Positions 6,276 to 51,578 are shown, numbered from the stretch's first letter. The stretch: DNA of 64,000 bases from Candidatus Nealsonbacteria bacterium (GCA_030628945.1 DAOVPY010000002.1:23831-87830), one strand, 5' to 3'. The notes: generated from the letters alone by a model not told the origin. Made by a program: numbers and translations.

Positions 6276-7778
6276 ATGAATTTAACTTCTCTTACTATTA
6301 CCCAAACTCACCAAGGACTGCTCAAAAAGAAATTTTCCGCTTTAGAGCTGGCTAAAGCATATTTGCGCAGGATAGAAAAAGAGGATAAAAAGATTTGTTC
6401 TTTTCTTACGGTCTTCAAACAATCGGCTCTTTCCCAAGCTAAAATAACAGATGACTTGATTTTACAAAACAGAAAAATTCCTTTATTAGCCGGAATTCCT
6501 TGCGCTATAAAAGACAATATCCTGGTTAAAGGAAAGAGATGCACCGCCGGTTCAAAAATTTTGGAAAATTACACTGCCTCGTATGATGCTACTAGTATAG
6601 AATTTCTCAAAGCCCAGGGAGCCGTAATTCTCGGAAAAACCAATCTTGATGAGTTCGGACATGGTTCTTCCTGCGAAAATTCCGCCTTTATAAAAACGCG
6701 CAATCCTCATGATTTAAGCAAAGTGCCTGGCGGGTCTTCGGGCGGCTCGGCCGCGGCAGTGGCAGCTGATTTATGCTGTTGCGCTTTGGGCTCTGACACC
6801 GGCGGTTCTATCCGTTTACCTGCTTCTTTTTGCGGAGTAGTCGGTTTAAAGCCGACTTACGGCGCAGTTTCCCGATATGGACTTATTGCCATGGCTTCTT
6901 CTCTGGACCAGATTGGACCGCTCGCTAAAAATGCAGAAGACGCTAAAATAGTATTTCAAGCGATTTCAGGAAAAGACCCGTTTGATTCGACCTCGGTCGA
7001 ATTAGACAAAAAAATTCACCCTGTTAAATGCCGCTTTGCGGCAATTTCGCGCACAGCGAAATTATTTAACAGGGTAAAAATTGGAATTCCGAAAGAGTAT
7101 TTTGTGAAAGGCATGAATCCAAAGGTGGAAAAAATAGTAAGAAACGCGATTAAAAAATACGAGGAGATGGGAATGAAAATTGAAGAAATTTCTCTGCCCC
7201 ACACCGAATACGCCCTGGCTGCTTATTACCTTATTATGGCATCGGAAGTTTCGGCTAATCTGGCGCGGTATGACGGAATTCGTTTTGGCTCTTCCAAAAC
7301 AAACTCCGGAATCAACCCTTTCGGCAAGCTCAGGGTTGATGGTGAGCGAAGCCGAACCATCAAAAATTTATTAGATGTCTATCTACAAACCAGAGGAGAG
7401 GGATTTGGCGAAGAAGTGCGGCGAAGAATTATGTTGGGAACATATACCTTATCTGCCGGTTATTATGAAGCATATTATCTAAGGGCGCAAAAAATCCGAA
7501 CCCTGATTAAACAAGATTTTGACAAAGCGTTCCAAAAAATTGATGTTATTTTAACTCCTGCTTCGCCTGTTCCAGCTTTTGGACTGGGCGAAAAAACAAC
7601 CGACCCTCTCGCTATGTATCTTTCTGATATTTTTATGGTAGCGGCAAATTTGGCTGGCTTGCCGGCTTTATCTATGCCCTGCGGCAAAATAGGAAAACTA
7701 CCTGTCGGCTTGCAGATTATTGGAAAACCGTTCAACGAAGAAACAATTTTAGAAACAGGAAAAATTCTGGAAAATTAA
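6276..7778 (+). CDS. gatA: Asp/Glu-tRNA amidotransferase subunit A
   Basis: Amidase signature GGSSGGSAAAVAA...GSDTGGSIRLPASFCGVVGLKPTYG. Carries two extra hairpin-forming segments (see findings). Confidence 0.95.
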   Translation: MNLTSLTITQTHQGLLKKKFSALELAKAYLRRIEKEDKKICSFLTVFKQSALSQAKITDDLILQNRKIPLLAGIPCAIKDNILVKGKRCTAGSKILENYTASYDATSIEFLKAQGAVILGKTNLDEFGHGSSCENSAFIKTRNPHDLSKVPGGSSGGSAAAVAADLCCCALGSDTGGSIRLPASFCGVVGLKPTYGAVSRYGLIAMASSLDQIGPLAKNAEDAKIVFQAISGKDPFDSTSVELDKKIHPVKCRFAAISRTAKLFNRVKIGIPKEYFVKGMNPKVEKIVRNAIKKYEEMGMKIEEISLPHTEYALAAYYLIMASEVSANLARYDGIRFGSSKTNSGINPFGKLRVDGERSRTIKNLLDVYLQTRGEGFGEEVRRRIMLGTYTLSAGYYEAYYLRAQKIRTLIKQDFDKAFQKIDVILTPASPVPAFGLGEKTTDPLAMYLSDIFMVAANLAGLPALSMPCGKIGKLPVGLQIIGKPFNEETILETGKILEN

Positions 7779-12896: not shown

Positions 12897-13988
12897 ATGG
12901 AGCCAATAACTATTAATGTTATAAAAATTTTTGCTCTCGGCGTTTGTTCTTTTATTTTTGCTTTTTCAGCAACTCCGATTTTAACTCATTTTTTGTACAA
13001 ACATAAACTCTGGCGGAAAGAAGTGAGAGAAAAGGCAATAGACGGAGGCGATTTGCCTTATTTTCAAAAATTTCACAAGCAGGGAGAAACCCATATTCCC
13101 AGATTTGGCGGGCTTTTAATCTGGCTCACGCCCCTGTTTTTAGCGGGATTATTTTTTTTCCTGGCAAAAACCAATTTTTACTGGTTTCAAAAACTGAATT
13201 TTTTAAGCCGCTCCCAGACCTGGCTGCCTTTGTTTGCGTTAGGCGCGGCTTCTTTGGTTGGTTTTGTTGATGATATTCTACAAGTTGTGGCTCCCCCTTC
13301 TCAAAGATTTTTAAGAAAAATTTGGGAAAGTCAATATATTGCGCGTGGTTTGGCTCTCAGGCACCGGCTTTTTTTAGTCGGCTTAATCGGTCTTATTGGC
13401 GGCTGGTGGTTTTTTGAAAAATTGGGCTGGAATACTCTGCATATACCCGGAGGAGGAGATTTGGAAATCGGCATTTTATACATTCCTCTTTTTATATTAG
13501 TAACAATGGCGGCATACAGCGGCGGCGTAATTGACGGCTTGGACGGTTTGGCTGGCGGAGCTTTTGCTTCTATATTTGGCGCTTATGCCGCTATTGCTTT
13601 AAGTCAAGGCCAGGTTGATATTGCCGCCTTCTGCGCTGTGATTTTGGGCGCTTTGCTCGCTTTTTTATGGTTTAACATTCCGCCCGCCAGATTTTATATG
13701 GGGGAAACTGGAATAATGGGCCTTTGTGTTGTCCTTACAGTAATTGCTTTTTTAACTGATTCTGTTTTAGTTCTGCCGATTATCGGATTTTTACTTGTTA
13801 TTGAAGCCGGTTCAGTCATCTTGCAACTTCTTTCCAAAAAATTCCGGCATAAAAAATTATTTTTAGCGGCTCCTTTGCACCTTCATTTTGAGGCAAAGGG
13901 CTGGCCTCACTACAAAATAACAATGCGTTTCTGGGTCATTGGTATTGTTATGGCAACAATCGGCGTAGCAATCAGGTTGCTTGGTTGA
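12897..13988 (+). CDS. mraY: phospho-N-acetylmuramoyl-pentapeptide transferase
   Basis: Polytopic. VIDGLDGLAGG, and C-terminal APLHLHFEAKGWPHYKITMRFWVIG typical of MraY. Confidence 0.85.
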   Translation: MEPITINVIKIFALGVCSFIFAFSATPILTHFLYKHKLWRKEVREKAIDGGDLPYFQKFHKQGETHIPRFGGLLIWLTPLFLAGLFFFLAKTNFYWFQKLNFLSRSQTWLPLFALGAASLVGFVDDILQVVAPPSQRFLRKIWESQYIARGLALRHRLFLVGLIGLIGGWWFFEKLGWNTLHIPGGGDLEIGILYIPLFILVTMAAYSGGVIDGLDGLAGGAFASIFGAYAAIALSQGQVDIAAFCAVILGALLAFLWFNIPPARFYMGETGIMGLCVVLTVIAFLTDSVLVLPIIGFLLVIEAGSVILQLLSKKFRHKKLFLAAPLHLHFEAKGWPHYKITMRFWVIGIVMATIGVAIRLLG

Positions 13989-33802: not shown

Positions 33803-35020
33803 CTATTCTTCTTCTATTAAATCAAATAAAGACGGAACATTCTTGCCTTTCTCTTCCAATTTAGAAATTTTATTTTGCATTTCTATTTCTTTTTCTCTCT
33901 CTTTCACCAAATAAGCGTCCGAGCCCGCGTAAAACTTTTCTATTCTTTTTAACCGCGGCAGTTGAGAAAGAACAATGGTAACGCTTACCGAACCTCCTCC
34001 CGAAACAGGATAATATCCTCCCCTGATTTCGGCTTCGGGCGCGAATTTTTTCAGACGTTTCTCAATATCGCTAAGAATATTGGCATAAGTATCTTTCTCC
34101 GATGCCCGCAGAAGAAACAGAATTCTTCCTGCTTCCTTGCCCATCTCTTCCAAACTTGAATACTTGGAATAAAGAGACAACTCTGCTAACGCTTCTTCTA
34201 CAGCGGCTATGGCATAAGAAATCACATCGCTTTCTTCGGTAAAATCTTTTTTCTTGAGCCGGTCCCAAAAAGGTATTTTTGATTGTCCGGAGCCCATAAT
34301 TGTCCAGCCGTTCAAAGAAACAATAATATCGCTGGCATCTACTACCTTATTAATATGCTTTGTTTTCCTCTGCTCTCCCGCGTATAACAGGTCTATGAAG
34401 GGAAAAACTATTTCGTAATTGATTGCCTCCAGATTGCCTGATAAAGAAGCGTTTTTTTGGATATAAGCTTCATTATCCACTAAGAACACTGCGTCAGCCT
34501 CTTCGTAGGTTGCCTTAAGGCAGATGGCAGTATTATAGACCGCCCTTTCTTCGTTTTTTTCTTCGTATTCAAAAGGAAGAACTAACAGAGCGTAAATCGG
34601 CATATCCCTGCCGTAATTCTTTTTCATCTGTTTAACAATCACGGGTACCGAACCAGAGCCGGTGCCGCCGCTCGTGGCTCCAATCACTAAAACAGCGTCT
34701 GTTTTTCCGTAAAAACCTTTAATCTTTTCATTAATGACATCGGTTATCAAACCGAACTTGTCATGAGCAAGTTGAGCGCCTTTTTCATTGAGCTTGCCGG
34801 CTCCGGATCCTTTGCCCCTTTCATCGGTAAGTAAAATGCGAAATTCTTTAGATATGTTTTTCACCCCGTAAAGGTCAATTCGCGCCGTATTTATCGCCAA
34901 GGCGCCGGTGAGAATTTTTTCTTTTAAATGTCTCTTCCTTCTTATATCCTGCGCCGAATATACAAACTCGTCTGCAATCCTGTTTCCGCACTGTCCGCAT
35001 CCTATAACAAACAATTTCAT
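33803..35020 (-). CDS. tubulin/FtsZ-superfamily GTPase, CetZ-like
   Basis: MKLFVIGCGQCGNRIADEF, AINTARIDL, GKGSGAGKLNEKGA, GATSGGTGSGSVPVIV, FLVDNEA, VVDASDI, C-terminal NVPSLFDLIEEE. Confidence 0.8.
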   Translation of the reverse strand: MKLFVIGCGQCGNRIADEFVYSAQDIRRKRHLKEKILTGALAINTARIDLYGVKNISKEFRILLTDERGKGSGAGKLNEKGAQLAHDKFGLITDVINEKIKGFYGKTDAVLVIGATSGGTGSGSVPVIVKQMKKNYGRDMPIYALLVLPFEYEEKNEERAVYNTAICLKATYEEADAVFLVDNEAYIQKNASLSGNLEAINYEIVFPFIDLLYAGEQRKTKHINKVVDASDIIVSLNGWTIMGSGQSKIPFWDRLKKKDFTEESDVISYAIAAVEEALAELSLYSKYSSLEEMGKEAGRILFLLRASEKDTYANILSDIEKRLKKFAPEAEIRGGYYPVSGGGSVSVTIVLSQLPRLKRIEKFYAGSDAYLVKEREKEIEMQNKISKLEEKGKNVPSLFDLIEEE

Positions 35021-36378: not shown

Positions 36379-36897
36379 CTAAATCCTTTTTATGCTCCTC
36401 AGAACAAAATAAGCGATTAAGCCGCCGACCAAAGCCGTTGCAAGCTGTGGCCAGCTAAACATCAATGCCGCTTTTTGGGCAATCTCTTTTTTGAGAAGCA
36501 AATCAATAACTATTGAACTCGCGCCGAATAAAAAGACAAACTTTAAAATACTCGCCAAAATTATGCCCAGCCAGTAATTTCTTTCCTTAAAATAACCGAA
36601 AACCACAATCAAAATAGTGTTGCCGAGCATAATAAAGGGAATTATCGGGGCCAATATTGGCGGCAAAAGCCCGACAGATAAAGCGATTACGCTGGGAATA
36701 ATGCCAACCAAAATCGCGTTTTGGGTTCCCAAAACTCCAACCGAGATAAAAAGCGCGGCATTAACAATAGGGCCGGTAATTGCCTGCTGGCGCAATAAAG
36801 AAGCAGCGCTTACAATGCCGACCAATACAATAAATTGGATTAAAATAAAAACTTTTTCTTTTGAAATTATTGTTGTTAGAGTTTTTTCTTGGTTCAT
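36379..36897 (-). CDS. integral membrane protein, translationally coupled to hydA (possibly ECF S-component-like)
   Basis: Start moved to MNQEKT so that its ATG overlaps the hydA TGA (ATGA). 5-6 TM helices. Confidence 0.55.
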   Translation of the reverse strand: MNQEKTLTTIISKEKVFILIQFIVLVGIVSAASLLRQQAITGPIVNAALFISVGVLGTQNAILVGIIPSVIALSVGLLPPILAPIIPFIMLGNTILIVVFGYFKERNYWLGIILASILKFVFLFGASSIVIDLLLKKEIAQKAALMFSWPQLATALVGGLIAYFVLRSIKRI

Positions 36898-38576
36898 ATA
36901 ACTTCTCTTCTCTTTGCAAAATATTTTGTGCGGCAAATAAGCCGGATTTTTTCTTTTGAAAAAAGAAAATCGCGATAAACTTTCTTTATTGCGGGATTAT
37001 GATGAGCCAGACGGATTTCTTTTTTGGCGTCAATCCTATAAAGAGCTTTTGCCCTCTCCTCTCTGATTTTACCATTCGTCGGCATTGGCTGACCACCGCC
37101 GCCGATACATCCGCCGGGACAAGCCATTATTTCCACGGCGTCGTATAATTTAGGATTTCTTTTTAAATCTTCCAAAATCTTTTTGGCATTCCCCAAACCG
37201 CTCGCCACGGCTATTTTTATCGGCCTTCCATTGATATTTATCGCGGCTTTCTTTATCCCCTCCATCCCCCGCGCCTTTTTAAACTCTATTCTCAATGGCT
37301 TGTTTTTGGCAAATTTGTCAAAAATAGTACGCAGGGCTGACTCCATAACCCCGCCGCTGGCTCCGTAAATCACTCCCCCGCCGCTTGGAATGCCCAAAGG
37401 GTCATCGGCTTTCTCTCCCAAAATTTTTTTGAGATTAATTTTGCGCTTTTTGAAAAAACAAGCTATCTCCCGGGTAGTTAAAACATAATCAACCGGTTTT
37501 AAGCCGTTTATTTCCAACTCCTTTCTTTGAATTTCATATTTTTTAGCCACGCAGGGCATAATAGAAACAACTATTATTTTTTTGGGCTCAATGTCTTGTT
37601 TTTCAGCCCAATAGGTTTTAATCAATCCGCCCAAAATGGCCTGAGGCGACCTCACCGCGGCTAAATTAGAAACAAATTCCGGATAATAGAATTCAACGAA
37701 TTTGACCCACGCGGGACAGCAGGAACTCAGACAAGGGCCGGTTTGATTTTCCAACTTCTCAAGTAATTCCCCGGATTCTTCAACAGTGGTAAAATCAGCG
37801 CCCACGCTGGTATCAAAAACTTTAGCAGCTCCTAATTTTTTGAGGCCCGCGACTAATTGCTCTGTCACTATTGAACCGTAAGGCATATTAAATTCCTCGC
37901 CAATGCTGGTTCTGATAGAAGGCGCAAATTGAAAAACAACAATTTTATTCTTGTTTTTCAACGCTCTCTCAACGTCTTTCAAATTTGACGCAGCTTCAAG
38001 GGCGCCGGTCGGACAATGAATAATACACTGGCCGCAATAAACGCAGTCCCGAGTTTGTTTTTGGGAAGGAGTTATTTTCAGAAGATGGCCCCTGCCCTTA
38101 ATTTCCAAAAAGCGCGCGCCCTGGTTTTCGCAAACCTCAACGCAATTGCGGCAGTCAATGCATTTTGAACTGTCAAAAACAACTGCGGGCCCGAATTTGC
38201 GAACCGGCTCATCGCCTTTTCTGAAAGAAAACCTGTTTATTTCTATTTTGTATTTTTTGGCTAATCTAAAAAGCTCACAATCCCCGCGGTGCCGGGCGAA
38301 AATCAATTCTAAATTAATTTTTCTGGCTTTTTTAATTTTCGCGGACTCGGTGATAATTTCCATGCCCGGTTCAATCTTTGTCGCGCAAGCCGCAAACAGC
38401 CCCTTCCTTCCCTTGATTTCCACCATACAAATTCGGCAAATAGCCTTGATATTAAGGTCCGGGTGAAAACAAAGAGCCGGAATTTCAATTCCATTTTCTT
38501 GAGCTACCTCTAATATGGTTTGCTCTTTTTGGCACTCAATCTTTTTGTTGTTAATAACGGCTCTAATTTTTTTCAT
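36894..38576 (-). CDS. hydA: [FeFe]-hydrogenase catalytic subunit
   Basis: N-terminal 2Fe-2S and 4Fe-4S cysteine motifs. H-cluster motifs SSCCPAW, MPCVAKKYE, EIMACPGGCIGGGGQP. Confidence 0.92.
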   Translation of the reverse strand: MKKIRAVINNKKIECQKEQTILEVAQENGIEIPALCFHPDLNIKAICRICMVEIKGRKGLFAACATKIEPGMEIITESAKIKKARKINLELIFARHRGDCELFRLAKKYKIEINRFSFRKGDEPVRKFGPAVVFDSSKCIDCRNCVEVCENQGARFLEIKGRGHLLKITPSQKQTRDCVYCGQCIIHCPTGALEAASNLKDVERALKNKNKIVVFQFAPSIRTSIGEEFNMPYGSIVTEQLVAGLKKLGAAKVFDTSVGADFTTVEESGELLEKLENQTGPCLSSCCPAWVKFVEFYYPEFVSNLAAVRSPQAILGGLIKTYWAEKQDIEPKKIIVVSIMPCVAKKYEIQRKELEINGLKPVDYVLTTREIACFFKKRKINLKKILGEKADDPLGIPSGGGVIYGASGGVMESALRTIFDKFAKNKPLRIEFKKARGMEGIKKAAININGRPIKIAVASGLGNAKKILEDLKRNPKLYDAVEIMACPGGCIGGGGQPMPTNGKIREERAKALYRIDAKKEIRLAHHNPAIKKVYRDFLFSKEKIRLICRTKYFAKRREVI

Positions 38577-39562
38577 TTCCCCTTTTTCATAATTTTTTCA
38601 ATTAAACTTCTGAAAGGAGGAACCAAGATTTTTCCAAAAGAGCAAAAACTGGTTTCCTCTAAAACAAAAAACAGGTCTTGTATTGTTTTTTTGTCAATGT
38701 TTTCTTTTTGCGCCATTTCAGCGATACGATAAACGCCTTCCCGGCAAGGCGTACATTTGCCGCAGCCGGATTCAAGAAAAAACTTGGCCCATTTCTTGAG
38801 CAAAAACTCGGGTTTGGTTTTTGCGCGGTTAAAAACAATAATAGCTCCCTGTCCCTTGGCTTTCTGTTTTAATTCCTTGGGAAGCAAAATCTCGCCGGAA
38901 GCGCCGCCGCCAACCTGAACAAAAAAATCAAACGCGGGTAAATTTTCAGTTTTTTCCAAAACCCTCTCAATTGGCCAATTTTCCGGCAAATCATAAACGC
39001 CTTTGTTTTTTACCTCGCCGCTGATTGAATAAAAACGAGTTCCAAGGAACTCGTTTTTAGCGATTTTAGCGACGCAATAAAATGTCTCGGCATTGTTAAT
39101 CAAAGTCGGGCAGCCAAAAAGGCCGAACTGAACGGGATATGGCGGCTTCATTCTCGGCTCTAACCTTTTTCCTTCAATCGCGTTTAGCAAAACCGTTTCT
39201 TCACCCGCCAGATAACCGCCTGTTTTTTTGAAAAGCGTAATTGGCAGATTTCGTGTAAGCGCATCTAATTTCTTTTTGAATTTTTCATAATAATCTTTGC
39301 GAAGATAGATGTAAGCCGAACTATTATCAATCGTTTTCAGGGCTATTTTTATTCCTTCCATCATTTCCTCAAGATAATTCTCTAAAATAAAACCGTCCTT
39401 GAAAACATCGGGCTCGCCTTCGGAAACATTGCAAATAATATATTTCTTTTTTGCTTTGGCTTTCCTGACCATCTCCCATTTTAGACCGGTTGGAAAACCA
39501 GACCCGCTCCTGCCCAGGAGATTGTGTTTTTTTAATTTCGCGATAATATCTTGCTTGTCCAT
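38573..39562 (-). CDS. NuoF-like flavoprotein subunit (HydB-like), short form
   Basis: GRSGSGFPTGLKWE, CNVSEGEPDVFKD, GGYLAGEETVLLNAIEG, PPYPVQFGLFGCPTLINNAETF, SGCGKCTPCREG. ATGA overlap with hydA. Confidence 0.85.
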   Translation of the reverse strand: MDKQDIIAKLKKHNLLGRSGSGFPTGLKWEMVRKAKAKKKYIICNVSEGEPDVFKDGFILENYLEEMMEGIKIALKTIDNSSAYIYLRKDYYEKFKKKLDALTRNLPITLFKKTGGYLAGEETVLLNAIEGKRLEPRMKPPYPVQFGLFGCPTLINNAETFYCVAKIAKNEFLGTRFYSISGEVKNKGVYDLPENWPIERVLEKTENLPAFDFFVQVGGGASGEILLPKELKQKAKGQGAIIVFNRAKTKPEFLLKKWAKFFLESGCGKCTPCREGVYRIAEMAQKENIDKKTIQDLFFVLEETSFCSFGKILVPPFRSLIEKIMKKGK

Positions 39563-39565
39563 AAA
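39535..39565. repeat. 31-nt direct repeat, copy A (covers the nuoF-like start codon)
   Basis: atttcgcgataatatcttgcttgtccataaa. Matches 44690-44720 at 28 of 31 positions. Confidence 0.9.
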
Positions 39566-39706
39566 TTAAAAAGGTGTTTGTTAGATAAAGTTAGAACTTT
39601 TTACGAACAAAACCTTGACGCTGATTGATTGCCAGCCTACTTGCCCCGACTTCGCCAAGATTTTTTTTTCGGCGGACGGACTACAAATCAAGGGGTGACG
39701 GGTGGG

Positions 39707-41248
39707 TCAAAAATTATTTTTAAAAATGGAATTAAAAATACTTTGATAGTCTTCCTTAAATAAGAATTTAGCATTTTTATAGTATTCTGTAAATATACTA
39801 CTCATGAAAGATTGAAACGCCCATTTCTTTTTATCGTCGTCAAAAACTTTCTTCTGCATAAAATCTGAAATCCCTGTTTTTTGTATTATTTGGATCATAT
39901 TTTCAAACTCATCAACTGAGCAAATTGAATAAGGCATTTGTTCCAAATATGACGGGTCAATCTTTTCTTGCTTTAGTTTTTCAATCAATATTTTGTTTAA
40001 TTCATTAAAAAACCGATCACCAAATAAATACCATTGCTCAAGAGTTAATACTAAAGGAAATATCTTTTTATTTTTATCAAACTTGAATGAAGGATATTTA
40101 TTGTCCTTATAATCTTTTATTGTTTTGTAGATTTGCAAAACAAAACTTGCCATTTTTTCTAATTCCTCGTTAACATAAGAGCTATCATTAAGTTCAAACT
40201 TTGCCGGCAATCTTAATCTTTTAGTTTTACATTCTACAAATAAAGCAGAATCATTATCATAAATAATCCAATCAGCACTATCTTTTCTATCTTTTCCGAC
40301 GAAGTATTGTTCCTCTGCCTGAAAATTAATTTTTTCATTAGTCGCCGTAGCTTTCTCAATAACTTCACCTGTATAATTTTGGAAAGATGTACCGAAATAG
40401 TTATCAAAATTTTTTCCATTGCAAATTTCATAATAGACACCACTGGTTATACGCCAAAATAACAAAGTCGGCAATGGACAGACTAAACGCTCTTGACCAA
40501 AATAAATCATTTTAATAATCGGGGAAGCTCTTAACGACGAAAAAGAATAAACAAATTTGTTATTAAATTCTTGTTCATTTTTTATTTTTTCTTTTAGTCC
40601 ACTGATTGAGACAGAGAAAACTTTTAAAAACTTTTCAACATTTTCCTGGTTTATTTCTTTAACTTCTACTTTGATTGGTAAATTAACAGCAGGATATTTT
40701 AAATAGGCACCTATAAACATCATTCCTACGAGATACAAATTTTTTGCTGTTAATCCAATGGATTTTTGTAAAATTTCATCTAATTTTGGCATACTAAAAA
40801 TTTTGTAATAGCGGGTTAAAAATTTACTATTTGGTCTTGCCTGCCAAGGAAATTGACGATGTGATATTCGAAATAATTCAACAAGAATATTATCTTTATT
40901 TATATAAGCACCACCAATATTATTTTCTAAATTTTTTAGTTTATTAACAGCGCCAGCAAAATAACCCGATTTTTTAAGAGTTTGATTATTAAAAGAGCTT
41001 TCTTGTCCATTGATGATTATTTCTCTTGATAAAGCTTCTAATTCCCATTCAGAACACATTCTTGTTTTCTGTATGTGATCGTTATTCAAAAACTCTAAAA
41101 TCACTTCTATTTCTTTGGATATTGGATTATTGAATTGTAAATGTTGAATGTATGACCAAATGACGAAAAAAGAATCATCAAGCGACAATTTGCTTAGATG
41201 ATTTCTTAGTGGTTTATATTCATTAAAAACAAAATCATCTTGTGTCAT
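39707..41248 (-). CDS. hypothetical protein with a PD-(D/E)xK nuclease motif (candidate second endonuclease subunit)
   Basis: 513 aa. SADWIIYDNDSALFVECKTKR fits D...ExK. The gap to the upstream gene is 13 nt. Confidence 0.5.
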   Translation of the reverse strand: MTQDDFVFNEYKPLRNHLSKLSLDDSFFVIWSYIQHLQFNNPISKEIEVILEFLNNDHIQKTRMCSEWELEALSREIIINGQESSFNNQTLKKSGYFAGAVNKLKNLENNIGGAYINKDNILVELFRISHRQFPWQARPNSKFLTRYYKIFSMPKLDEILQKSIGLTAKNLYLVGMMFIGAYLKYPAVNLPIKVEVKEINQENVEKFLKVFSVSISGLKEKIKNEQEFNNKFVYSFSSLRASPIIKMIYFGQERLVCPLPTLLFWRITSGVYYEICNGKNFDNYFGTSFQNYTGEVIEKATATNEKINFQAEEQYFVGKDRKDSADWIIYDNDSALFVECKTKRLRLPAKFELNDSSYVNEELEKMASFVLQIYKTIKDYKDNKYPSFKFDKNKKIFPLVLTLEQWYLFGDRFFNELNKILIEKLKQEKIDPSYLEQMPYSICSVDEFENMIQIIQKTGISDFMQKKVFDDDKKKWAFQSFMSSIFTEYYKNAKFLFKEDYQSIFNSIFKNNF

Positions 41249-41261
41249 TTTTTATACAATT

Positions 41262-42653
41262 TTATGACCAAAAATCCAAAAGATTTTTTATTGCTTCCTT
41301 AAATAATGCAGGGGCTTTTATTCCCAAAACAAGATCGCCGTTTTCATTAAGTAAAAAGCCGACTTTAATTTCAACGACTTTCTTTTCTGTCCCGCCGTAC
41401 AAAACAACAGTGCGGATAATTTTGTATTTTGGATAATACTTTTTAATATAAATTTTTTCTATATCACCGAAACTTTTTAATTCCTTAATTCCATTTTGGC
41501 GAAATTGATATTTTTTACCTTCAATATTTATAATTTTACTTCTACCGAAGTCAATTAAAATTAAATCTGGGATACTGATAATTTTATTTTTATTGCCAGC
41601 TTTATACGCCTTTCTGTCCGAGTATTTTTCAAGCGGAATATACTTACCATCACTCGTTATAAAATAACCCTTTTCGCAACCGGCATGATTTTCAAAAATT
41701 GAAAATCCTTTAGTAAAGTTTTCAACGACTAGATGAATAAAAATTGTGCCAAGCTTTTCGCCCTCTATTTCATATTTCCAATAAATATCCCTTTCTTTAC
41801 TTGTAGGCAAAGTCAATCCTTGAATTTGTAATTTTAAATGATTGGCAATTTTTACAAATTTATTACCAGATTGCAGATGTTTTTGTTTTAATCCGTGTTT
41901 TGTAATAACAATTTCGCCAGTCCAACCCAATTTTCGAATTGCCGCACTAATTAAACTTAACGCTCCGATATTTGGATCGTGAGCAAGCCCGCCTAATTTA
42001 TACAATCTTCCTGAAATTGTTATTTTATTATCCTTTTTCTTTATTAAAATCGGCACATTGCCTTTATGGGCGTGGTGCATTTTCTTCTTAAGGGCAACGA
42101 TTTCATCAATTGAATTAAACGGCCTAAAGATTTTTTCATCTAATTTCTTGCCAAGTATTTCTACACCAAGCATCAGCAACAATTTTGTACCGAAAATATA
42201 AGTGGCTGTCGGTATTTCCTTTTGTTCTACTTTTAGATTATAGAGCATTACTTTTTTGATTTCGGGGTAATAATTTTCAATAAAAACAAATTTTGAGGCG
42301 CGTTGATATACGCCGGTATTTCGGCTTTCTTTGTCATCGGTTTTTGTTTCTTCAATCGCGTAAAGCGGAGTATCTTTTTGCGTTGGCTGTTTCCCTTGAT
42401 AGAAAATAAGAAAATCAACAAAGCTGGAAAATCCGCTAACGGATTTTATAAAAACCCTTTCAATTTTATTACAACGAAAACCAACTACCTCGTATAAAAA
42501 AGCAAATTTTTCGCTCTCTAAAATTGGCAAAATCCTAATTGTGTCAACAAAACAAGCGAACTTATTGTCTTTCGCAAACATCATTAAAATATTTGCGATA
42601 ACTTCTCGCTTTGGTCTTTCTTCTGTTAAAATCCACAAATTTTTATTTTTCAT
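41262..42653 (-). CDS. putative type II restriction endonuclease
   Basis: 463 aa. IPDLILIDFGRSKIINIEGKK fits PD...ExK. The gap to the methyltransferase gene is 2 nt. Confidence 0.55.
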   Translation of the reverse strand: MKNKNLWILTEERPKREVIANILMMFAKDNKFACFVDTIRILPILESEKFAFLYEVVGFRCNKIERVFIKSVSGFSSFVDFLIFYQGKQPTQKDTPLYAIEETKTDDKESRNTGVYQRASKFVFIENYYPEIKKVMLYNLKVEQKEIPTATYIFGTKLLLMLGVEILGKKLDEKIFRPFNSIDEIVALKKKMHHAHKGNVPILIKKKDNKITISGRLYKLGGLAHDPNIGALSLISAAIRKLGWTGEIVITKHGLKQKHLQSGNKFVKIANHLKLQIQGLTLPTSKERDIYWKYEIEGEKLGTIFIHLVVENFTKGFSIFENHAGCEKGYFITSDGKYIPLEKYSDRKAYKAGNKNKIISIPDLILIDFGRSKIINIEGKKYQFRQNGIKELKSFGDIEKIYIKKYYPKYKIIRTVVLYGGTEKKVVEIKVGFLLNENGDLVLGIKAPALFKEAIKNLLDFWS

Positions 42654-42655
42654 AA

Positions 42656-44542
42656 TTATTTTTCTTTACGAAATATCATAATGAATTGATGAAATTGGTT
42701 GGCAACGAAAGCGTGGGGATATCCGAACGGATAAAGTTTTTGCGTTGCGTCATACCAAATTTTATAACCCTTGAAAGAAAGGTCTGGTACTTCAAGCAAC
42801 TTATCAGTAATAGAACAATGCAACATATTATGCCCGTTTCCATTCGGCTGTAAATCTTTAACGAAAATCGCAATGTATCCTTTTGGTTTTAGATATTTCG
42901 CCGACTTCGCGATAACATCTTTTAGAGATTCAAGGAAATTTTCTCTCTCCATATTTCCTAAATCGCTTTCGTGATTTGTAAAAGGGGTGGCGACAGCAAA
43001 ACCGGTTTTCTTTTTTTTCTGACCTGTCCTTTTTTTGCTCAACATTTCTCCGTATGGCGGATCAGTAAGAATAAAATCAATTTGAGTATTCTTTGGTAAA
43101 ACTTTGTCTATTTCTAAAGAATTTCCAACAATCGCTTTTTGTTCTGTAATACCAAGCTCTTTGCAAACTTTTTTATACAAGTCAATATATTTTTTAGATA
43201 GATCAACGCCAATTCCTTTTCTATCGGACAATGAACATGCAATAAGCGTTCCACCAACGCCCATGAAAGGATCAAATACTATTTGATTTTCCTTTGTAAA
43301 GAAATCAACGAATTTTTTCATCAATTGCGGAGGTTTTGGCGAAGGATGCTTGCCTCGCAAATGATGAGCAAAACCGTCAGCTCCTTTTGTTGAATAATGC
43401 GTAACTTCAACAGAATTAAGAAAGTATATCCATTCAGAGCCGCTTAAATCGTTAAGTTTATTTTTTTGATTAATCCTTTTCAAATAATAAATTTTTTCTT
43501 TTACTCCGTTTTTTTGTTTTCCGTTGCTATTACTTTTGTATCTTTGATAATTTTGCTCTGCGATTTCGGTTTTTCCTGCTTTATTGAATAACTTTAATAT
43601 TTCGTTTTCGGACATTATCCCGTCATCGTTATAACTTAAAAGCAAATGTTTAAAATTATTTTTCTTTATGATTTCGTCAAGTGCTTTTATTCCTGTTCTC
43701 GCGTTGCAAAATTCCGACTTTTGGTTTTCGTAAGTCCTCATTCCAGTAACACCTTTAATTTCCGGTTTGTCCCATTTAGCGATAGTTTCCAAAATGTGAT
43801 AGTTGGGGGCGTATTGTCGCTCATTATACGGCGGATCAAGATATAAAATATCAATACATTTTACTTGGTCTAAAACTTTTAATCCGTTGCCATAATAAAC
43901 TTTATTTGTTGTCTCGCTTTTTATGATTTCCGGCACTTCAAGCGTTAATTTTTTGAAAGCTCTTTTGTCCCATTCTTTCAAAAATGCCGAATATGTTCCG
44001 CTTATATTTGCCACAAACGGCACGGCCTCAATAAGCGAGGCGAGTAAAAAATAATATTCTTGCTCATTGATAAGATTTGATTTTTCCCATTCTTCTGTTT
44101 TTTCTCTTATTGCGTCAATTCGTTTAGAATTTTCGCCAGTAAAATATTTACGATGATGATTTTGTCCTTGCGTGCCTTCGGGAGAATAATTTTTATAAAC
44201 AAACCCTTCCACACCCTCTAAATTATTAAGGTATTTAATTATTTCTTTGGCATTTTGGCTGTCGCTTATAAAAAGCGTTTCCTCAACAGGATCAATTTTT
44301 AAGTGTTTTAATAATTTTGTAAATTTAGGATATTGATTTTGCTCAATATAAACTTTTTGCAGAACATAAGAAAAATACAAAAGGTCAGACGAGATAATTT
44401 TGTAGCCGAGTTTCTTAAAATGTTTTGCAACACTTCCGGTTCCGGCGAATAAATCGCAAAAAACATTACCCTTCAAATCCTTTCCTTTAACAAAGGTCTC
44501 TATAAAATCAAGTAAATTTTCTTTACAGCCAATAAATCGCAT
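42656..44542 (-). CDS. fused two-domain DNA methyltransferase (Dam/D12-like plus N6A/N4C-type)
   Basis: The N-terminal half has FIGCKENLLDFI, DLFAGTGSV, YLDPPYNERQY. The C-terminal half has HPSPKPPQLMKKFV, FDPFMGVGGT, ILTDPPYGE. Confidence 0.85.
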   Translation of the reverse strand: MRFIGCKENLLDFIETFVKGKDLKGNVFCDLFAGTGSVAKHFKKLGYKIISSDLLYFSYVLQKVYIEQNQYPKFTKLLKHLKIDPVEETLFISDSQNAKEIIKYLNNLEGVEGFVYKNYSPEGTQGQNHHRKYFTGENSKRIDAIREKTEEWEKSNLINEQEYYFLLASLIEAVPFVANISGTYSAFLKEWDKRAFKKLTLEVPEIIKSETTNKVYYGNGLKVLDQVKCIDILYLDPPYNERQYAPNYHILETIAKWDKPEIKGVTGMRTYENQKSEFCNARTGIKALDEIIKKNNFKHLLLSYNDDGIMSENEILKLFNKAGKTEIAEQNYQRYKSNSNGKQKNGVKEKIYYLKRINQKNKLNDLSGSEWIYFLNSVEVTHYSTKGADGFAHHLRGKHPSPKPPQLMKKFVDFFTKENQIVFDPFMGVGGTLIACSLSDRKGIGVDLSKKYIDLYKKVCKELGITEQKAIVGNSLEIDKVLPKNTQIDFILTDPPYGEMLSKKRTGQKKKKTGFAVATPFTNHESDLGNMERENFLESLKDVIAKSAKYLKPKGYIAIFVKDLQPNGNGHNMLHCSITDKLLEVPDLSFKGYKIWYDATQKLYPFGYPHAFVANQFHQFIMIFRKEK

Positions 44543-44689
44543 AGTTATTTTATAAAATCATTAACACAAACGCCCGACACTCTGGCGATTTTTTTATGTT
44601 TTTTTAATTTTCAAATTCTGACCATCGCATTAAAAACCCATCTTCCCCAATTTTATTAAATTCAAAGCAGTGATATTCCATAATTTTTT

Positions 44690-44720
44690 ATTTCGCGATA
44701 ATATCTTGCGCATCCATAAA
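44690..44720. repeat. 31-nt direct repeat, copy B (relic of the nuoF-like 5' end)
   Basis: atttcgcgataatatcttgcgcatccataaa. The minus strand encodes MDAQDIIAK then a stop, versus MDKQDIIAK at the real gene start. Confidence 0.9.
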
Positions 44721-44748: not shown

Positions 44749-45030
44749 CTATATTTTTAACCCGGAATATTCGCGCAAGGTTTTTAATGTTGCTTGGACA
44801 GATTCATTTTCAGTGTTTAACAATTTTATATTTTTAAATCTTTCAGCCAGCATAGTAATCACTTCATCAGCCCAGGACGGCGTCAAAACTTCTACTCCTG
44901 AAAAATCTATTTCAATTAATTCATCATCTCTCAAATCTTTAATCAAAGAAGATTGCATTACAAAAAATGCTTCTCTGCCGGCTGGACGAGAAATAAGCAT
45001 ACGGCCAAATTTCTTTAGTTTAATTTGCAT
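44749..45030 (-). CDS. STAS-like small protein (DUF4325-like)
   Basis: 93 aa. GREAFFVM...IEIDFSGVEVLTPSWADEVI resembles STAS/anti-anti-sigma-like folds. Assignment is from recall only. Confidence 0.5.
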   Translation of the reverse strand: MQIKLKKFGRMLISRPAGREAFFVMQSSLIKDLRDDELIEIDFSGVEVLTPSWADEVITMLAERFKNIKLLNTENESVQATLKTLREYSGLKI

Positions 45031-45034
45031 ATAT

Positions 45035-45607
45035 TTAAGATTTAATAATGGCTAAACAACCTTTAATATTTTTTGTAATCTTTTTTACTTCAAAAATTTT
45101 ATTTATGTTTATTTCTGCATTACCGCTTATAAATATTAAATCAAATTTTTTGCTCTTTACGCTATCTTTGACAAACTTTAATCCATTGCCCCTCCTTTCG
45201 GGGTATCTAGAGGAGATAGTTTGAGTAAAAGCCACATTCAAAGCGTCTTTGTGATTATTTAATGCTGGTTTAACTCTTTGCAGGGTTTTTAAAATTCCCA
45301 ATCCCCTATCTGCTAAAACTATAATACATTTATCACCTAAAATTTCATAACCAAAAAAAATTCCCATTACATCGGGCCAATTGCCTAAATTATGATCAAA
45401 AGAATTATTGCCTATTTCTCCGGCTATTGCTGAAAGCAATGCTTTACTTTGATTTAATTTTTCATTTTTGGATAACATTATCGTCATCTTTTCCAGGCGC
45501 GCCTGAAAAATGTCTCGGGTTTGGCAATAATAATTACTATCTACGTCTATTCTATCTGCTTCTAATGTTGTCCAATTATAAACTAATTTTTCTATGTTGA
45601 TGTCCAT
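45035..45607 (-). CDS. GHKL/HATPase_c-type ATP-binding protein (anti-sigma-factor-kinase-like)
   Basis: N-box-like EIGNNSFDH, G1-like LADRGLGI, G2-like RRGNGLKF. 190 aa. Confidence 0.6.
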   Translation of the reverse strand: MDINIEKLVYNWTTLEADRIDVDSNYYCQTRDIFQARLEKMTIMLSKNEKLNQSKALLSAIAGEIGNNSFDHNLGNWPDVMGIFFGYEILGDKCIIVLADRGLGILKTLQRVKPALNNHKDALNVAFTQTISSRYPERRGNGLKFVKDSVKSKKFDLIFISGNAEININKIFEVKKITKNIKGCLAIIKS

Positions 45608-45635: not shown

Positions 45636-45709
45636 TGGTGGACCTGGGCAGAATCGGACTGCCATTTCTACATTGCAAATGTAGTGTTCTACCACTAAAC
45701 TACAGGCCC
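45636..45709 (-). tRNA. tRNA-Cys (GCA), CCA encoded
   Basis: Reverse complement GGGCCTGTAGTTTAGTGGTAGAACACTACATTTGCAATGTAGAAATGGCAGTCCGATTCTGCCCAGGTCCACCA. Confidence 0.9.
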
Positions 45710-45721
45710 TAAATTTTTATG

Positions 45722-45795
45722 TGGGCGCGGCAGGAGTCGAACCTGCGACCTCACGATTATCAGTCGTGTGCTCTAACCAACTGAGCTACGCGCCC
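45722..45795 (-). tRNA. tRNA-Ile (GAU)
   Basis: Reverse complement GGGCGCGTAGCTCAGTTGGTTAGAGCACACGACTGATAATCGTGAGGTCGCAGGTTCGACTCCTGCCGCGCCCA. Confidence 0.9.
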
Positions 45796-50684: not shown

Positions 50685-51578
50685 CTAAACCTCATTCATA
50701 ATCCTCTGGTGCGTCTCTTTCGCTTTCCTTATTTCCACTTTCGCATAAAATTTCAAAGTGGTGCGCGGCGACTTATGCCGAGCAAGATGTTGAACCTCTT
50801 TTATTGTCGCACCCTTGTCTAATAATAAAGAACAAAAACTTCTTCTTAAAGAATGATGAGTGATCTGTTTCGTAAATCCAAACTCCTTTCTATATTTTAA
50901 CAAATGCTTTCTGGCTACACAAGACGATAATCTTGAAATCTTTTGCGGATTGTAAGTAATAAATAAATCCGGGCACTCATCTCCTCGCGTTGCCAAATAT
51001 CTTTTGAGCCAACTCAAACTTCTTTCCGAAAAATAAAGCCATCCTTCATTCTCTCCTTTTGCTCCTTTAATTTTTACTTCTCTATTTTCTAAATCAATAC
51101 CATTTTTATTAAGCGACAAAATTTCTGAAATCCTTGCTCCGGTTGAAAAAAGTATTTCGTATAATGTGCGATCCCGCAATCCGTAAAGAGTATGTAAGGA
51201 TATTTTTTCAACAAAATTGTTAAACTCTGTCTCGGTTAAAAAGTCCTGTTCTTTTTCGGCAACTTTTGGGACCTCAATTTCTCTCCAGTCAAACGGAATT
51301 TTTTCCCCGCTTTCTTTTAAGAATTTTAGATAGCGCCGAAGGGTGCAAATGGCCCGGGTTGGTCCATGTTCTCCGTGAGTCCTGCCGGCTTCTATAACTG
51401 AAGCCACATCGGCGATTTTCAAATGTTTTATTTTTTTATCTATCAATAAAGAATGCGAAACCGCGCCAAACAAAAATCGGCGATGTTCCCGGATTGTTTT
51501 TTCAGTCAATCCTTTCTGTCTCATGTATTCAAAATAATTTTGGAAGCCGTCTTTTACTCTCATAAAAAAACCACTCAT
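50685..51578 (-). CDS. tyrosine site-specific recombinase/integrase
   Basis: SAM-like N-domain. Catalytic pattern GARISEIL, HHSLRRSF, LARHKSPRTTLKFY. Confidence 0.9.
   Translation of the reverse strand: MSGFFMRVKDGFQNYFEYMRQKGLTEKTIREHRRFLFGAVSHSLLIDKKIKHLKIADVASVIEAGRTHGEHGPTRAICTLRRYLKFLKESGEKIPFDWREIEVPKVAEKEQDFLTETEFNNFVEKISLHTLYGLRDRTLYEILFSTGARISEILSLNKNGIDLENREVKIKGAKGENEGWLYFSERSLSWLKRYLATRGDECPDLFITYNPQKISRLSSCVARKHLLKYRKEFGFTKQITHHSLRRSFCSLLLDKGATIKEVQHLARHKSPRTTLKFYAKVEIRKAKETHQRIMNEV

What the first reader, a model, noticed from the sequence alone, without database searches (positions are those of the whole stretch)
39535..44720. R-M islet bracketed by 31-nt direct repeats that duplicate the 5' end of the hydrogenase flavoprotein gene
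atttcgcgataatatcttgcttgtccataaa (39535-39565) recurs as atttcgcgataatatcttgcgcatccataaa (44690-44720), identical at 28 of 31 positions, with a T-run on one side of both. Copy A contains the real start of the nuoF-like gene (MDKQDIIAK...). Copy B encodes MDAQDIIAK followed by a stop, so it is a relic start. The ~5.1 kb between the copies holds only the three R-M genes and looks more AT-rich than its surroundings. This reads as a cassette insertion or exchange exactly at the 5' end of the hydrogenase operon. It separated that operon from its former upstream neighbours, the HATPase/STAS pair.
Basis: seen in the sequence. Interest (0 to 1): 0.7.

Follow-up and report, generated by a model that had tools for sequence, protein, structure and literature searches.

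The report
Defence islet inserted at hydrogenase gene start
A 5.1-kb block of horizontally acquired phage-defence genes sits exactly at the start of a hydrogenase gene in a Patescibacteria genome, flanked by a 37-base duplicate of that gene's start; this pattern is already known for restriction-modification genes, so it is a clean but ordinary example.

Summary
The repeat is real and slightly longer than reported. It is 37 nt (39529-39565 and 44684-44720, 33/37 identical), occurs only twice in the window, and never arose in shuffles. Copy A holds the working start of the NuoF-like gene. Copy B encodes MDAQDIIAK followed by a stop. Three independent assemblies agree on both junctions.

The DNA between the copies is a mosaic of mobile modules, not "three R-M genes":
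- a remnant of a controller gene;
- a fused two-domain methyltransferase plus a Type II restriction enzyme, 83-87% identical in DNA to copies in unrelated genomic contexts;
- a separate GapS1-like PD-(D/E)xK defence gene, 88-89% identical to copies elsewhere;
- a conserved non-coding tail that reaches to within 7 nt of copy A.

By contrast, the closest NuoF-like relative among 5.8 billion non-redundant proteins is only 73% identical.

The best fit is the known class "R-M insertion with long target duplication" (Furuta et al. 2010). The sequence-internal criteria are met. The decisive one, an empty site in a close relative, cannot be tested because no such relative was found in the protein collection or the species-representative genomes searched. 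Integration of a donor fragment through a short nuoF homology cannot be excluded.

AT-richness ends sharply only on the nuoF side. Nowhere else is the HATPase/STAS pair linked to nuoF. Interest is low to moderate.

The parts
39529..39565 (-). Direct repeat copy A. On the minus strand it reads TTTATGGACAAGCAAGATATTATCGCGAAATTAAAAA, covering positions -3 to +34 of the working NuoF-like gene.
44684..44720 (-). Direct repeat copy B. On the minus strand it reads TTTATGGATGCGCAAGATATTATCGCGAAATAAAAAA. It is a relic start encoding MDAQDIIAK followed by TAA, 28 nt downstream of the STAS-like gene's stop codon.
38573..39562 (-). NuoF-like flavoprotein gene (329 aa; Complex1_51K plus NADH_4Fe-4S). First gene of a conserved trio.
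36894..38576 (-). [FeFe]-hydrogenase HydA-like gene (560 aa).
36379..36936 (-). 185-aa membrane protein (weak ECF_trnsprt match). Found next to nuoF-hydA in 8 of the 11 related loci.
39573..39706 (-). Conserved non-coding tail of the islet. The GC-rich part (about 39630-39706) is homologous to DNA that follows OLD-nuclease genes in L017, L018 and L020. The part 39573-39640 is homologous to L071:1-95. It ends 7 nt from copy A.
39707..41248 (-). GapS1-like PD-(D/E)xK protein (513 aa). A stand-alone defence-type gene, not part of the R-M pair. It has the lowest GC in the window (27.8%).
41262..42653 (-). Type II restriction endonuclease (463 aa).
42656..44542 (-). Fused two-domain DNA methyltransferase (628 aa; D12-class N6A domain plus N6_N4 domain).
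44543..44595 (-). Relic of the 3' end of an HTH_3 controller (C-protein) gene. The gene is intact upstream of the M-R pair in L018, L019 and L030. DNA homology to other M-R units starts here.
44596..44683 (-). 88-nt stretch of unknown origin between copy B and the M-R unit. It contains a 25-codon ORF (44607-44681) with no detectable relatives.
44749..45030 (-). STAS-like DUF4325 protein (93 aa), flanking gene on the copy B side.
45035..45607 (-). 190-aa partner of the STAS-like gene. It has no Pfam, NCBIfam or PADLOC match; the GHKL/HATPase-like label rests on motifs read from the sequence. The two genes form a conserved pair (76 of 80 related loci).
45636..45795 (-). tRNA-Ala(TGC) and tRNA-Ile(GAT). 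They mark the upstream end of the AT-rich tract.

Best explanation
A roughly 5.1-kb fragment of a Patescibacterial defence island was inserted right at the start of the NuoF-like gene. The fragment carries a truncated controller gene, a fused methyltransferase, a Type II restriction enzyme, a GapS1-like nuclease and a conserved non-coding tail. The insertion duplicated 37 bp of the target, from position -3 to +34 relative to the ATG.

The copy still joined to the gene body (A) remains the working start, now preceded by foreign DNA. The copy left next to the old upstream gene (B) is a dead start that has since picked up a stop codon.

This is the pattern called "insertion of R-M genes with long target duplication", which needs no transposase or integrase in the insert. 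The 20-nt perfectly identical core of the repeats would also allow precise loss of the islet by recombination.

Shown: the repeat, the foreign and mosaic nature of the insert, and foreign DNA abutting copy A.
Inferred: the direction of the event (insertion rather than another rearrangement), the duplication mechanism itself, and the possibility of loss by recombination.
For: 1. The repeat is statistically real, unique in the window, and sharply limited to 37 nt.
2. It starts 3 nt before the nuoF ATG and covers the first 11 codons. Copy B keeps the reading frame for 9 codons and then stops.
3. The insert is mobile DNA. The M-R unit (44595-41245) is 83-87% identical at DNA level in at least 9 loci with different neighbours, and REase relatives of 77-91% identity occur in contigs labelled Parcubacteria, Nealsonbacteria, Berkelbacteria and Firestonebacteria, with 56-57% relatives on Bartonella and Psychrobacter plasmids. 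The GapS1-like module is 88-89% identical in other islets.
4. The NuoF-like gene's closest relative is only 73% identical in protein and about 75% in DNA.
5. GC3 is 0.22-0.29 in the insert against 0.42 for nuoF and a window mean of 0.353. The cassettes keep this low GC in every host.
6. Sequence homologous to cassette-flanking non-coding DNA reaches to 39573, 7 nt from copy A, so the repeat edge coincides with the foreign/native junction.
7. No integrase or transposase lies inside the insert, its ends carry no terminal inverted repeats, and there is no tRNA-fragment repeat.
8. The sequence-internal criteria of Furuta et al. 2010 (PMC2853133) are met: R and M genes inside, insert under 20 kb, repeat over 30 bp.
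9. In a related islet (L026) that carries a homologous GapS1-like gene, 113-nt direct repeats of 94% identity bracket a Type IIG enzyme, the GapS1-like gene and GmrSD.
Against: - No empty site is available, so neither the direction nor the mechanism of the event is demonstrated.
- The two copies differ at 4 of 37 positions, and three of these are adjacent. That is a lot for a recent duplication and fits equally well with two different nuoF alleles meeting by recombination.
- The insert is a fragment truncated at both ends rather than a defined unit, and 88 nt next to copy B have no known origin.
- The AT-rich tract does not stop at copy B.
- Uniqueness of the repeat could be tested only within 64 kb of a contig of about 145 kb.
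Confidence: 0.55

Rival explanations
1. Homology-guided integration. A circular or linear donor fragment already carried a short piece of a nuoF 5' end, picked up where the cassette lay next to a nuoF gene in a donor. It recombined with the resident nuoF start through a single crossover in the 20-nt identical core. This leaves the homologous segment on both sides of the insert. The mismatches would then be allelic differences between donor and recipient, not later mutations.
For: - The homology begins almost exactly at the start codon, where coding conservation between genomes begins.
- Three of the four mismatches are adjacent and change codon 3 (K to A). This position varies among natural NuoF N-termini: MDTK, MDSK, MDGK, MAQD and others.
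- Homologous recombination into the islet is evidently active: a 267-nt patch in the methyltransferase gene holds 35 of the 41 differences between two strains.
Against: - None of the loci fetched for homologues of the restriction enzyme or the GapS1-like gene (L017-L030) has a nuoF homologue next to the cassette.
- 20 nt of perfect identity is a very short substrate for RecA-type recombination.
- No donor allele starting MDAQDIIAK was seen among the 120 closest NuoF proteins.
Confidence: 0.2
2. Relic of a larger rearrangement. The genome once had a second nuoF (or a tandemly duplicated hydrogenase module) next to the STAS-like gene. Defence genes replaced most of it, and only the first 37 nt survive.
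For: In all 11 related loci nuoF-hydA travel together, with the 185-aa membrane gene in 8 of them, and the genes flanking the module differ from those in the window. Rearrangement or transfer of the module is therefore common.
Against: - No further trace of nuoF sequence lies beyond the 37 nt.
- It requires more events than a single insertion.
- The remaining piece ends within 7 nt of where foreign DNA begins on the other side, which is what an insertion junction predicts.
Confidence: 0.1
3. Site-specific recombination. The two copies are attL and attR of an element integrated by a tyrosine recombinase acting in trans, for example the 297-aa Phage_integrase-family protein at 50685-51578.
For: - A Phage_integrase-family gene lies about 6 kb away.
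- tRNA genes, which are common integration targets, lie 0.9 kb from copy B.
- In related islets, 113-nt elements recur between cassettes.
Against: - There is no integrase inside the repeat-bounded segment.
- The repeat is not a tRNA fragment, and no tRNA-derived repeat is present.
- The 37-mer is not found beside any homologous cassette.
- Cassette homology ends at different points in different loci, so there is no fixed element end.
Confidence: 0.05
4. A chance or functional repeat unrelated to insertion, for example a shared translation-initiation or regulatory module.
For: Both copies carry TTTATGGA. The gene for the STAS partner also starts with TTTATGGAC.
Against: - 33 of 37 matches never arose in shuffles.
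- Copy B is followed by a stop and by no homologous gene.
- The copies bracket exactly the foreign DNA.
Confidence: 0.03

Closest known systems
R-M gene insertion with long target duplication (Nobusato et al. 2000 in Helicobacter pylori, cited from memory; Furuta, Abe and Kobayashi 2010, PMC2853133)
   Same: R and M genes lie in a short insert (5.1 kb) with no mobility gene. The insert is flanked by a direct repeat longer than 30 bp that derives from the local target. The repeats are of comparable length to the published cases (46-47 bp at 44/46 to 47/47 identity in that paper's Table 2). The original H. pylori cases were Type IIS systems, and the fused two-domain methyltransferase here suggests an asymmetric, Type IIS-like site.
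   Different: No empty-site genome is available, which is the evidence on which the published cases rest. The repeats are more diverged (33/37). The insert also carries a non-R-M defence gene and is a mosaic truncated at both ends. The host is a Patescibacterium; the species that quotes from the paper do not include Patescibacteria.
Defence islands and defence-gene hotspots with cassette exchange
   Same: Several unrelated defence genes are clustered. The gene after the M-R pair is swapped between loci: an OLD nuclease, an AIPR protein or the GapS1-like gene. The GapS1-like gene also sits next to AlwI-type and Eco57I-type R-M systems and GmrSD elsewhere.
   Different: Here the boundary is a duplication of a housekeeping gene's start. 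It is not a conserved pair of core genes or an integrase-associated hotspot.
GAPS1 single-protein anti-phage system (Mahata et al., bioRxiv 10.1101/2023.03.28.534373)
   Same: The 513-aa protein matches the NCBIfam GapS1 model over nearly its full length (E = 3.8e-25). It has an invariant D...ExK motif with the same 15-residue spacing between D and K as the GAPS1 catalytic residues D313 and K328.
   Different: The score of 88.7 bits is far below the family cut-off of 320, so it is at best a distant relative. Its function is untested.
Transposon-like R-M units flanked by inverted repeats (Furuta et al. 2010, third class)
   Same: In L018 the homologous C-M-R-OLD cassette lies between inverted copies (at least 41 nt, 100% identical) of the GC-rich element whose start is also present at the window islet's end.
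   Different: The window has only one truncated copy of that element, no inverted partner and no short target duplication.

Membership tests
R-M insertion with long target duplication (Furuta 2010 criteria) | Both an R and an M gene homologue lie inside the inserted segment | tested here: met
   The methyltransferase matches MethyltransfD12 (1.4e-42) and N6_N4_Mtase (3.8e-29). The restriction enzyme matches PADLOC REase_II (4.8e-65).
R-M insertion with long target duplication (Furuta 2010 criteria) | Insert shorter than 20 kb | tested here: met
   5,118 bp lie between the repeats (39566-44683).
R-M insertion with long target duplication (Furuta 2010 criteria) | Flanking direct repeat longer than 30 bp | tested here: met
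   37 bp, 33/37 identical.
R-M insertion with long target duplication (Furuta 2010 criteria) | No other mobile element (integrase, transposase, prophage) accounts for the insert | tested here: met
   Pfam, PADLOC and NCBIfam give no mobility domain in the three genes. There are no terminal inverted repeats. The nearest integrase-family gene is about 6 kb outside.
R-M insertion with long target duplication (Furuta 2010 criteria) | The repeat sequence does not occur elsewhere in the genome | tested here: inconclusive
   It occurs only twice in the 64-kb window.
R-M insertion with long target duplication (Furuta 2010 criteria) | A related genome shows the empty site with a single copy of the repeat | not testable with these tools
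   The NuoF 90% cluster has one member and the next relative is 73% identical. All contigs with the exact NuoF or STAS protein carry the islet. Species-representative genomes share no synteny beyond the hydrogenase module.
Integrase-mediated genomic island (att sites, often in a tRNA) | Integrase gene inside the element, and att repeats derived from a tRNA or other fixed site | tested here: not met
   There is no integrase between the repeats. No repeat of the tRNA-Ala or tRNA-Ile sequence lies near the islet.
IS or transposon insertion | Terminal inverted repeats, a transposase and a short (under 15 bp) target duplication | tested here: not met
   No inverted repeats pair the ends of the islet. 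No transposase domain was found. The duplication is 37 bp.
Type IIS restriction-modification system | Two methyltransferase activities for an asymmetric site (separate or fused) | tested here: met
   One 628-aa protein carries a D12-class domain (residues 1-313) and an N6_N4 domain (about 360-627).
Type IIS restriction-modification system | Endonuclease with separate recognition and cleavage domains that cuts outside its site | tested here: inconclusive
   Conserved D...ExK-like motifs are present (E102/K104 and PD363...E378-x-K380). The AlphaFold model has mean pLDDT 69.7 and only weak matches to PD-(D/E)xK nuclease folds, E = 0.014 or worse. The cleavage position cannot be tested in silico.
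GapS1 anti-phage family (NCBIfam NF047931) | Score above the curated family cut-off | tested here: not met
   88.7 bits against a cut-off of 320, although E = 3.8e-25 over profile positions 63-446 of 455.
GapS1 anti-phage family (NCBIfam NF047931) | Conserved PD-(D/E)xK active site (D313 and K328 in GAPS1) | tested here: met
   D326, E339 and K341 are invariant in 28 homologues, with the same D-to-K spacing of 15 residues.

The most novel reading that the evidence does not exclude
Defence cassettes in Patescibacteria may move as fragments bounded by conserved non-coding elements that Rfam does not describe. Two such elements were seen. One is a GC-rich element of at least 300 nt that folds far better than shuffles. 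The other is a 113-nt C/T-rich element that recurs between cassettes. On this reading the 37-bp duplication at nuoF is the footprint of a transposase-free insertion route, possibly driven by the R-M system or by these elements, and this route also rewires the promoter of a core energy-metabolism operon.
Probability: 0.12. Interest if true: 0.6.

Novelty: new member of a known kind. Interest (0 to 1): 0.3.

Why it matters
If the insertion reading is right, the "long target duplication" mode of R-M gene mobility extends to the reduced genomes of Patescibacteria, and to a mixed cargo of an R-M pair plus a GapS1-like gene. The mode has so far been documented by genome comparison in cultivated bacteria such as Helicobacter, Haemophilus and Neisseria.

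The case also shows a defence insertion replacing the native upstream region of a hydrogenase operon without breaking the gene. This is relevant to how streamlined symbiont genomes tolerate defence-gene turnover. Finally, the repeats give a ready-made assay for gain or loss of the islet in population data.

None of this overturns current understanding.

Tried and rejected
- **Longer, decayed duplication.** A collinear 27-nt match of 70% identity (39447-39473 and 44600-44626) and a GF..W resemblance in translation suggested a duplication of about 120 nt. Shuffle tests on the left flanks gave no support (global p about 0.5, local p about 0.05). The right flanks gave global p about 0.014 and local p about 0.2. 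The protein-level offsets are not collinear with the DNA. Rejected.
- **tRNA-derived att repeat.** Only tRNA-to-tRNA similarity was found.
- **Known RNA family in the non-coding tail or the related GC-rich elements.** Nothing reached gathering score and nothing credible appeared at E up to 1.
- **Promoter and terminator scans.** Counts were at background level and uninformative.
- **Empty site.** Sought through exact-protein look-ups (NuoF, REase, STAS), species-representative genomes and the 5.8-billion protein collection. None exists there.
- **The HATPase/STAS pair as a defence module.** PADLOC gives only a marginal PtuA match, and its neighbours in other genomes are mostly housekeeping genes. 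I do not claim it is one.
- **Naming the restriction enzyme by structure.** The model's C-terminal third has low confidence, and Foldseek against the PDB gives only weak nuclease-fold matches. A PDB sequence search found nothing useful.
- **The conserved tail motif in viral contigs.** No matches.
- **The 88 nt next to copy B and its 25-codon ORF.** No relatives in any fetched locus.
Full report
**1. The observation**

Ungapped extension gives a 37-nt direct repeat, 39529-39565 and 44684-44720, with 33/37 identical. With up to three mismatches allowed, the 31-mer occurs only twice in the 64-kb window; 100 dinucleotide-preserving shuffles never produced a match.

Similarity stops at the ends of the 37 nt. 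A collinear weak match about 60 nt further in (family D19) did not survive shuffle tests. The right flanks reached a nominal global-alignment p of about 0.014 but a local p of about 0.2, and I do not count that as extension.

All genes here are on the minus strand. On that strand:
- copy A reads TTT ATG GAC AAG CAA GAT ATT ATC GCG AAA TTA AAA A. It is the true start of a 329-aa NuoF-like gene;
- copy B reads TTT ATG GAT GCG CAA GAT ATT ATC GCG AAA TAA. That is MDAQDIIAK followed by a stop.

Both junctions are reproduced in contigs from other samples and another assembler. These include a strain variant at 99.4% identity whose repeats are identical. The repeat is therefore not an assembly artefact.

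**2. Gene content**

In the direction of transcription the order is:
- a 230-aa HTH protein;
- tRNA-Ile and tRNA-Ala;
- a 190-aa protein and a 93-aa STAS-like DUF4325 protein. The 190-aa protein has no Pfam, NCBIfam or PADLOC match, and the GHKL/HATPase-like label rests on motifs read from its sequence;
- copy B;
- a 628-aa fused methyltransferase with a D12-class domain and an N6_N4 domain;
- a 463-aa protein that matches a PADLOC Type II restriction enzyme model at 4.8e-65;
- a 513-aa protein;
- copy A with the NuoF-like gene, an [FeFe]-hydrogenase HydA gene and a 185-aa membrane protein.

The 513-aa protein is not an R-M component. It matches the NCBIfam GapS1 anti-phage model over almost its whole length (E = 3.8e-25), although well below the family cut-off. 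Its family has an invariant D326...E339-x-K341 motif. The spacing between D and K is the same as between the catalytic D313 and K328 of GAPS1, a single-protein PD-(D/E)xK defence system (bioRxiv 10.1101/2023.03.28.534373).

**3. The insert is foreign and mosaic**

The restriction enzyme has dozens of relatives at 77-91% protein identity in contigs labelled Parcubacteria, Nealsonbacteria, Berkelbacteria and even Firestonebacteria. Relatives at 56-57% sit on small Bartonella and Psychrobacter plasmids.

Fetching their loci shows that the methyltransferase-endonuclease pair is a conserved two-gene unit in quite different places: after lexA, after rpsI, or after a 66-aa HTH_3 controller gene. DNA identity to the window is 83-87% and runs from 44595 to 41245.

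The window keeps only the last 50 nt or so of the controller gene (44543-44595).

The gene after the pair varies between loci: an OLD-family nuclease, an AIPR protein, or the GapS1-like gene in the window and in L030. The GapS1-like gene is itself a module, 88-89% identical in DNA (41266-39709) to copies beside AlwI-type and Eco57I-type R-M systems and GmrSD.

The NuoF-like protein is very different. Its 90% cluster contains only itself, and the next relative among 5.8 billion non-redundant proteins is 73% identical; DNA identity to the nearest genes is about 75%.

Composition agrees. GC3 is 0.22, 0.28 and 0.29 for the three insert genes, against 0.42 for nuoF and a window mean of 0.353 with sd 0.055. 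The cassettes keep the same low GC in every host examined.

**4. The junctions**

The 141 nt between the GapS1-like stop codon and copy A are not native nuoF leader sequence. Their GC-rich first part is homologous to DNA that follows the OLD gene in L017, L018 and L020. The remainder, down to 39573, matches the start of L071. Recognisably foreign DNA therefore reaches to within 7 nt of copy A, and the edge of the repeat coincides with the foreign/native boundary. This is what an insertion predicts.

On the other side, 88 nt next to copy B (44596-44683) have no detectable relatives.

The repeat-bounded segment contains no integrase or transposase and has no terminal inverted repeats. No tRNA fragment is repeated.

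**5. Mechanism**

The anatomy matches the class that Kobayashi's group called insertion with long target duplication. Their operational criteria are R and M genes inside, an insert under 20 kb, a flanking repeat over 30 bp and no other mobile element. Their examples have 46-47-bp repeats, and the first cases were Type IIS systems (PMC2853133). Those criteria are met here. The fused two-domain methyltransferase suggests, but does not prove, an asymmetric Type IIS-like site. The structure model of the endonuclease was too weak to settle its architecture.

The criterion that carries the published cases is an empty site in a related genome, and it cannot be tested. Exact-protein look-ups for NuoF, the endonuclease and the STAS-like protein return only contigs with the islet. 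In the 11 related loci from species-representative genomes, nuoF and hydA always travel together, with the 185-aa membrane gene in 8 of them, and the other window genes flanking the module are not found beside it. In the nearest relatives, for example, the gene upstream of nuoF ends with a YchF-like C-terminus, as read from the sequence.

I therefore give the long-target-duplication reading 0.55. The broader statement, that this is horizontally acquired DNA inserted at the nuoF start, I hold at roughly 0.85.

**6. Rivals**

The main rival (0.2) is integration of a donor fragment that already carried a short nuoF 5' piece, by a crossover in the 20-nt perfectly identical core.
- For: three of the four mismatches are adjacent and change codon 3, a position that varies among natural NuoF N-termini. 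Homology starts almost at the start codon. Recombination into the islet is visibly active, since 35 of 41 differences between two strains fall in a 267-nt patch of the methyltransferase gene.
- Against: no cassette homologue among the fetched cassette loci lies next to a nuoF gene, and 20 nt is a very short substrate.

The other rivals are less likely, for the reasons given in their entries: a relic of a second nuoF copy (0.1), integrase att sites (0.05), and chance or a regulatory repeat (0.03).

**7.

Insertion or exchange at the 5' end of the hydrogenase operon is supported as the best reading. Three points need correction.
- The cargo is two R-M genes plus a separate defence gene, a gene relic and a non-coding tail.
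- AT-richness has a sharp edge only at copy A. Beyond copy B it continues through the STAS-like gene (GC3 0.28) and its partner (GC3 0.26) up to tRNA-Ala. Gene-level GC varies across this genome, so this does not show that the pair is foreign.
- That the pair was the operon's former neighbour follows from the model but has no outside support. The pair is a conserved two-gene module (76 of 80 related metagenome loci). In those loci it shows no hit to the hydrogenase, R-M or GapS1-like proteins of the window, it often lies near tRNA genes (at least 14 loci), and its neighbours are mostly housekeeping genes.

**8. Novelty and interest**

This is a new member of a known kind: an R-M-containing defence islet with a long direct repeat of the target, in a Patescibacterium. 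It is neat because the duplicated target is the first 11 codons of a core metabolic gene, so a readable dead start is left behind. It does not challenge current understanding, and I score interest at 0.3.

The most novel reading not excluded is that undescribed conserved non-coding elements bracket these cassettes and take part in their movement. Two such elements were seen: a GC-rich element of at least 300 nt with a folding z-score of -5.3, and a 113-nt repeat that recurs between cassettes in L026, L027 and L029. I give that reading about 0.12.

Noticed in passing
window 39630-39706; L018:1385-1700 (minus) and 7038-7103; L017:11100-11250; L020:4190-4352; L019:429-444: A GC-rich non-coding element follows the third gene of the M-R cassettes. 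In L018 it brackets the C-M-R-OLD cassette as inverted copies (at least 41 nt, 100% identical, cut off by the contig end). The 316-nt L018 version folds at -137.8 kcal/mol, z = -5.3 against shuffles. No Rfam family matches. The window keeps only its first 70-80 nt.
   Followed up: partly
window 39573-39640; L071:1-95: The spacer just upstream of the working nuoF start is conserved in an unrelated metagenome contig: 32 nt at 90.6%, with a wider collinear match by eye. There it precedes further GC-rich sequence and an HTH gene. Function unknown. No match in viral contigs.
   Followed up: partly
L026:6951-7063 and 13710-13822; L027:5470-5489 and 7735-7754; L028:5445-5464; L029:6755-6774: A 113-nt C/T-rich element (94% identical copies) lies in direct orientation on both sides of another defence islet (a Type IIG enzyme, a 246-aa protein, a GapS1-like gene and GmrSD). 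It recurs after the next two genes, like a spacer between cassettes. It is absent from the window.
   Followed up: partly
window 44039-44305: 35 of the 41 differences between this contig and a 99.4%-identical contig from another sample (L005) fall in a 267-nt patch of the methyltransferase gene. This looks like a recombination or gene-conversion tract from another M-R allele. A co-assembly chimera is not excluded.
   Followed up: partly
window 44543-44595: A relic of the 3' end of an HTH_3 controller (C-protein) gene. The gene is intact in L018, L019 and L030. L023-L025 appear to share the same truncation, so a controller-less lineage of this M-R unit seems to be circulating.
   Followed up: partly
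window 44749-45607; L033-L112: The pair formed by the 190-aa protein and the DUF4325 STAS-like protein is a very widespread two-gene module in Patescibacteria-like metagenome contigs: 457 or more relatives, with the partner present in 76 of 80 loci. It lies in varied, mostly housekeeping neighbourhoods and often near tRNA genes. It resembles an RsbW/RsbV-type partner switch. Function unknown.
   Followed up: partly
window 36379-39562; L006-L016: The NuoF-like and HydA genes travel together in all 11 related loci, with the 185-aa membrane gene (weak ECF_trnsprt match) in 8 of them. The other window genes flanking the module are not found next to it there, so the hydrogenase module itself appears to be shuffled or transferred.
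   Followed up: partly
window 33803-35020: A 405-aa protein with Tubulin and CetZ_C Pfam domains, an archaeal-type CetZ-like tubulin, is encoded in this bacterial (Patescibacteria) contig.
   Followed up: no
window 45786-45795: The stop-proximal 10 nt of the 230-aa HTH gene overlap the 5' end of tRNA-Ile. The protein has only weak HTH matches (MerR_1, IS3-type HTH).
   Followed up: no
L017:1289-5392: A 1367-aa UvrD/PDDEXK helicase-nuclease with an intein (Hint/Intein_splicing) lies upstream of lexA and the homologous M-R cassette.
   Followed up: no
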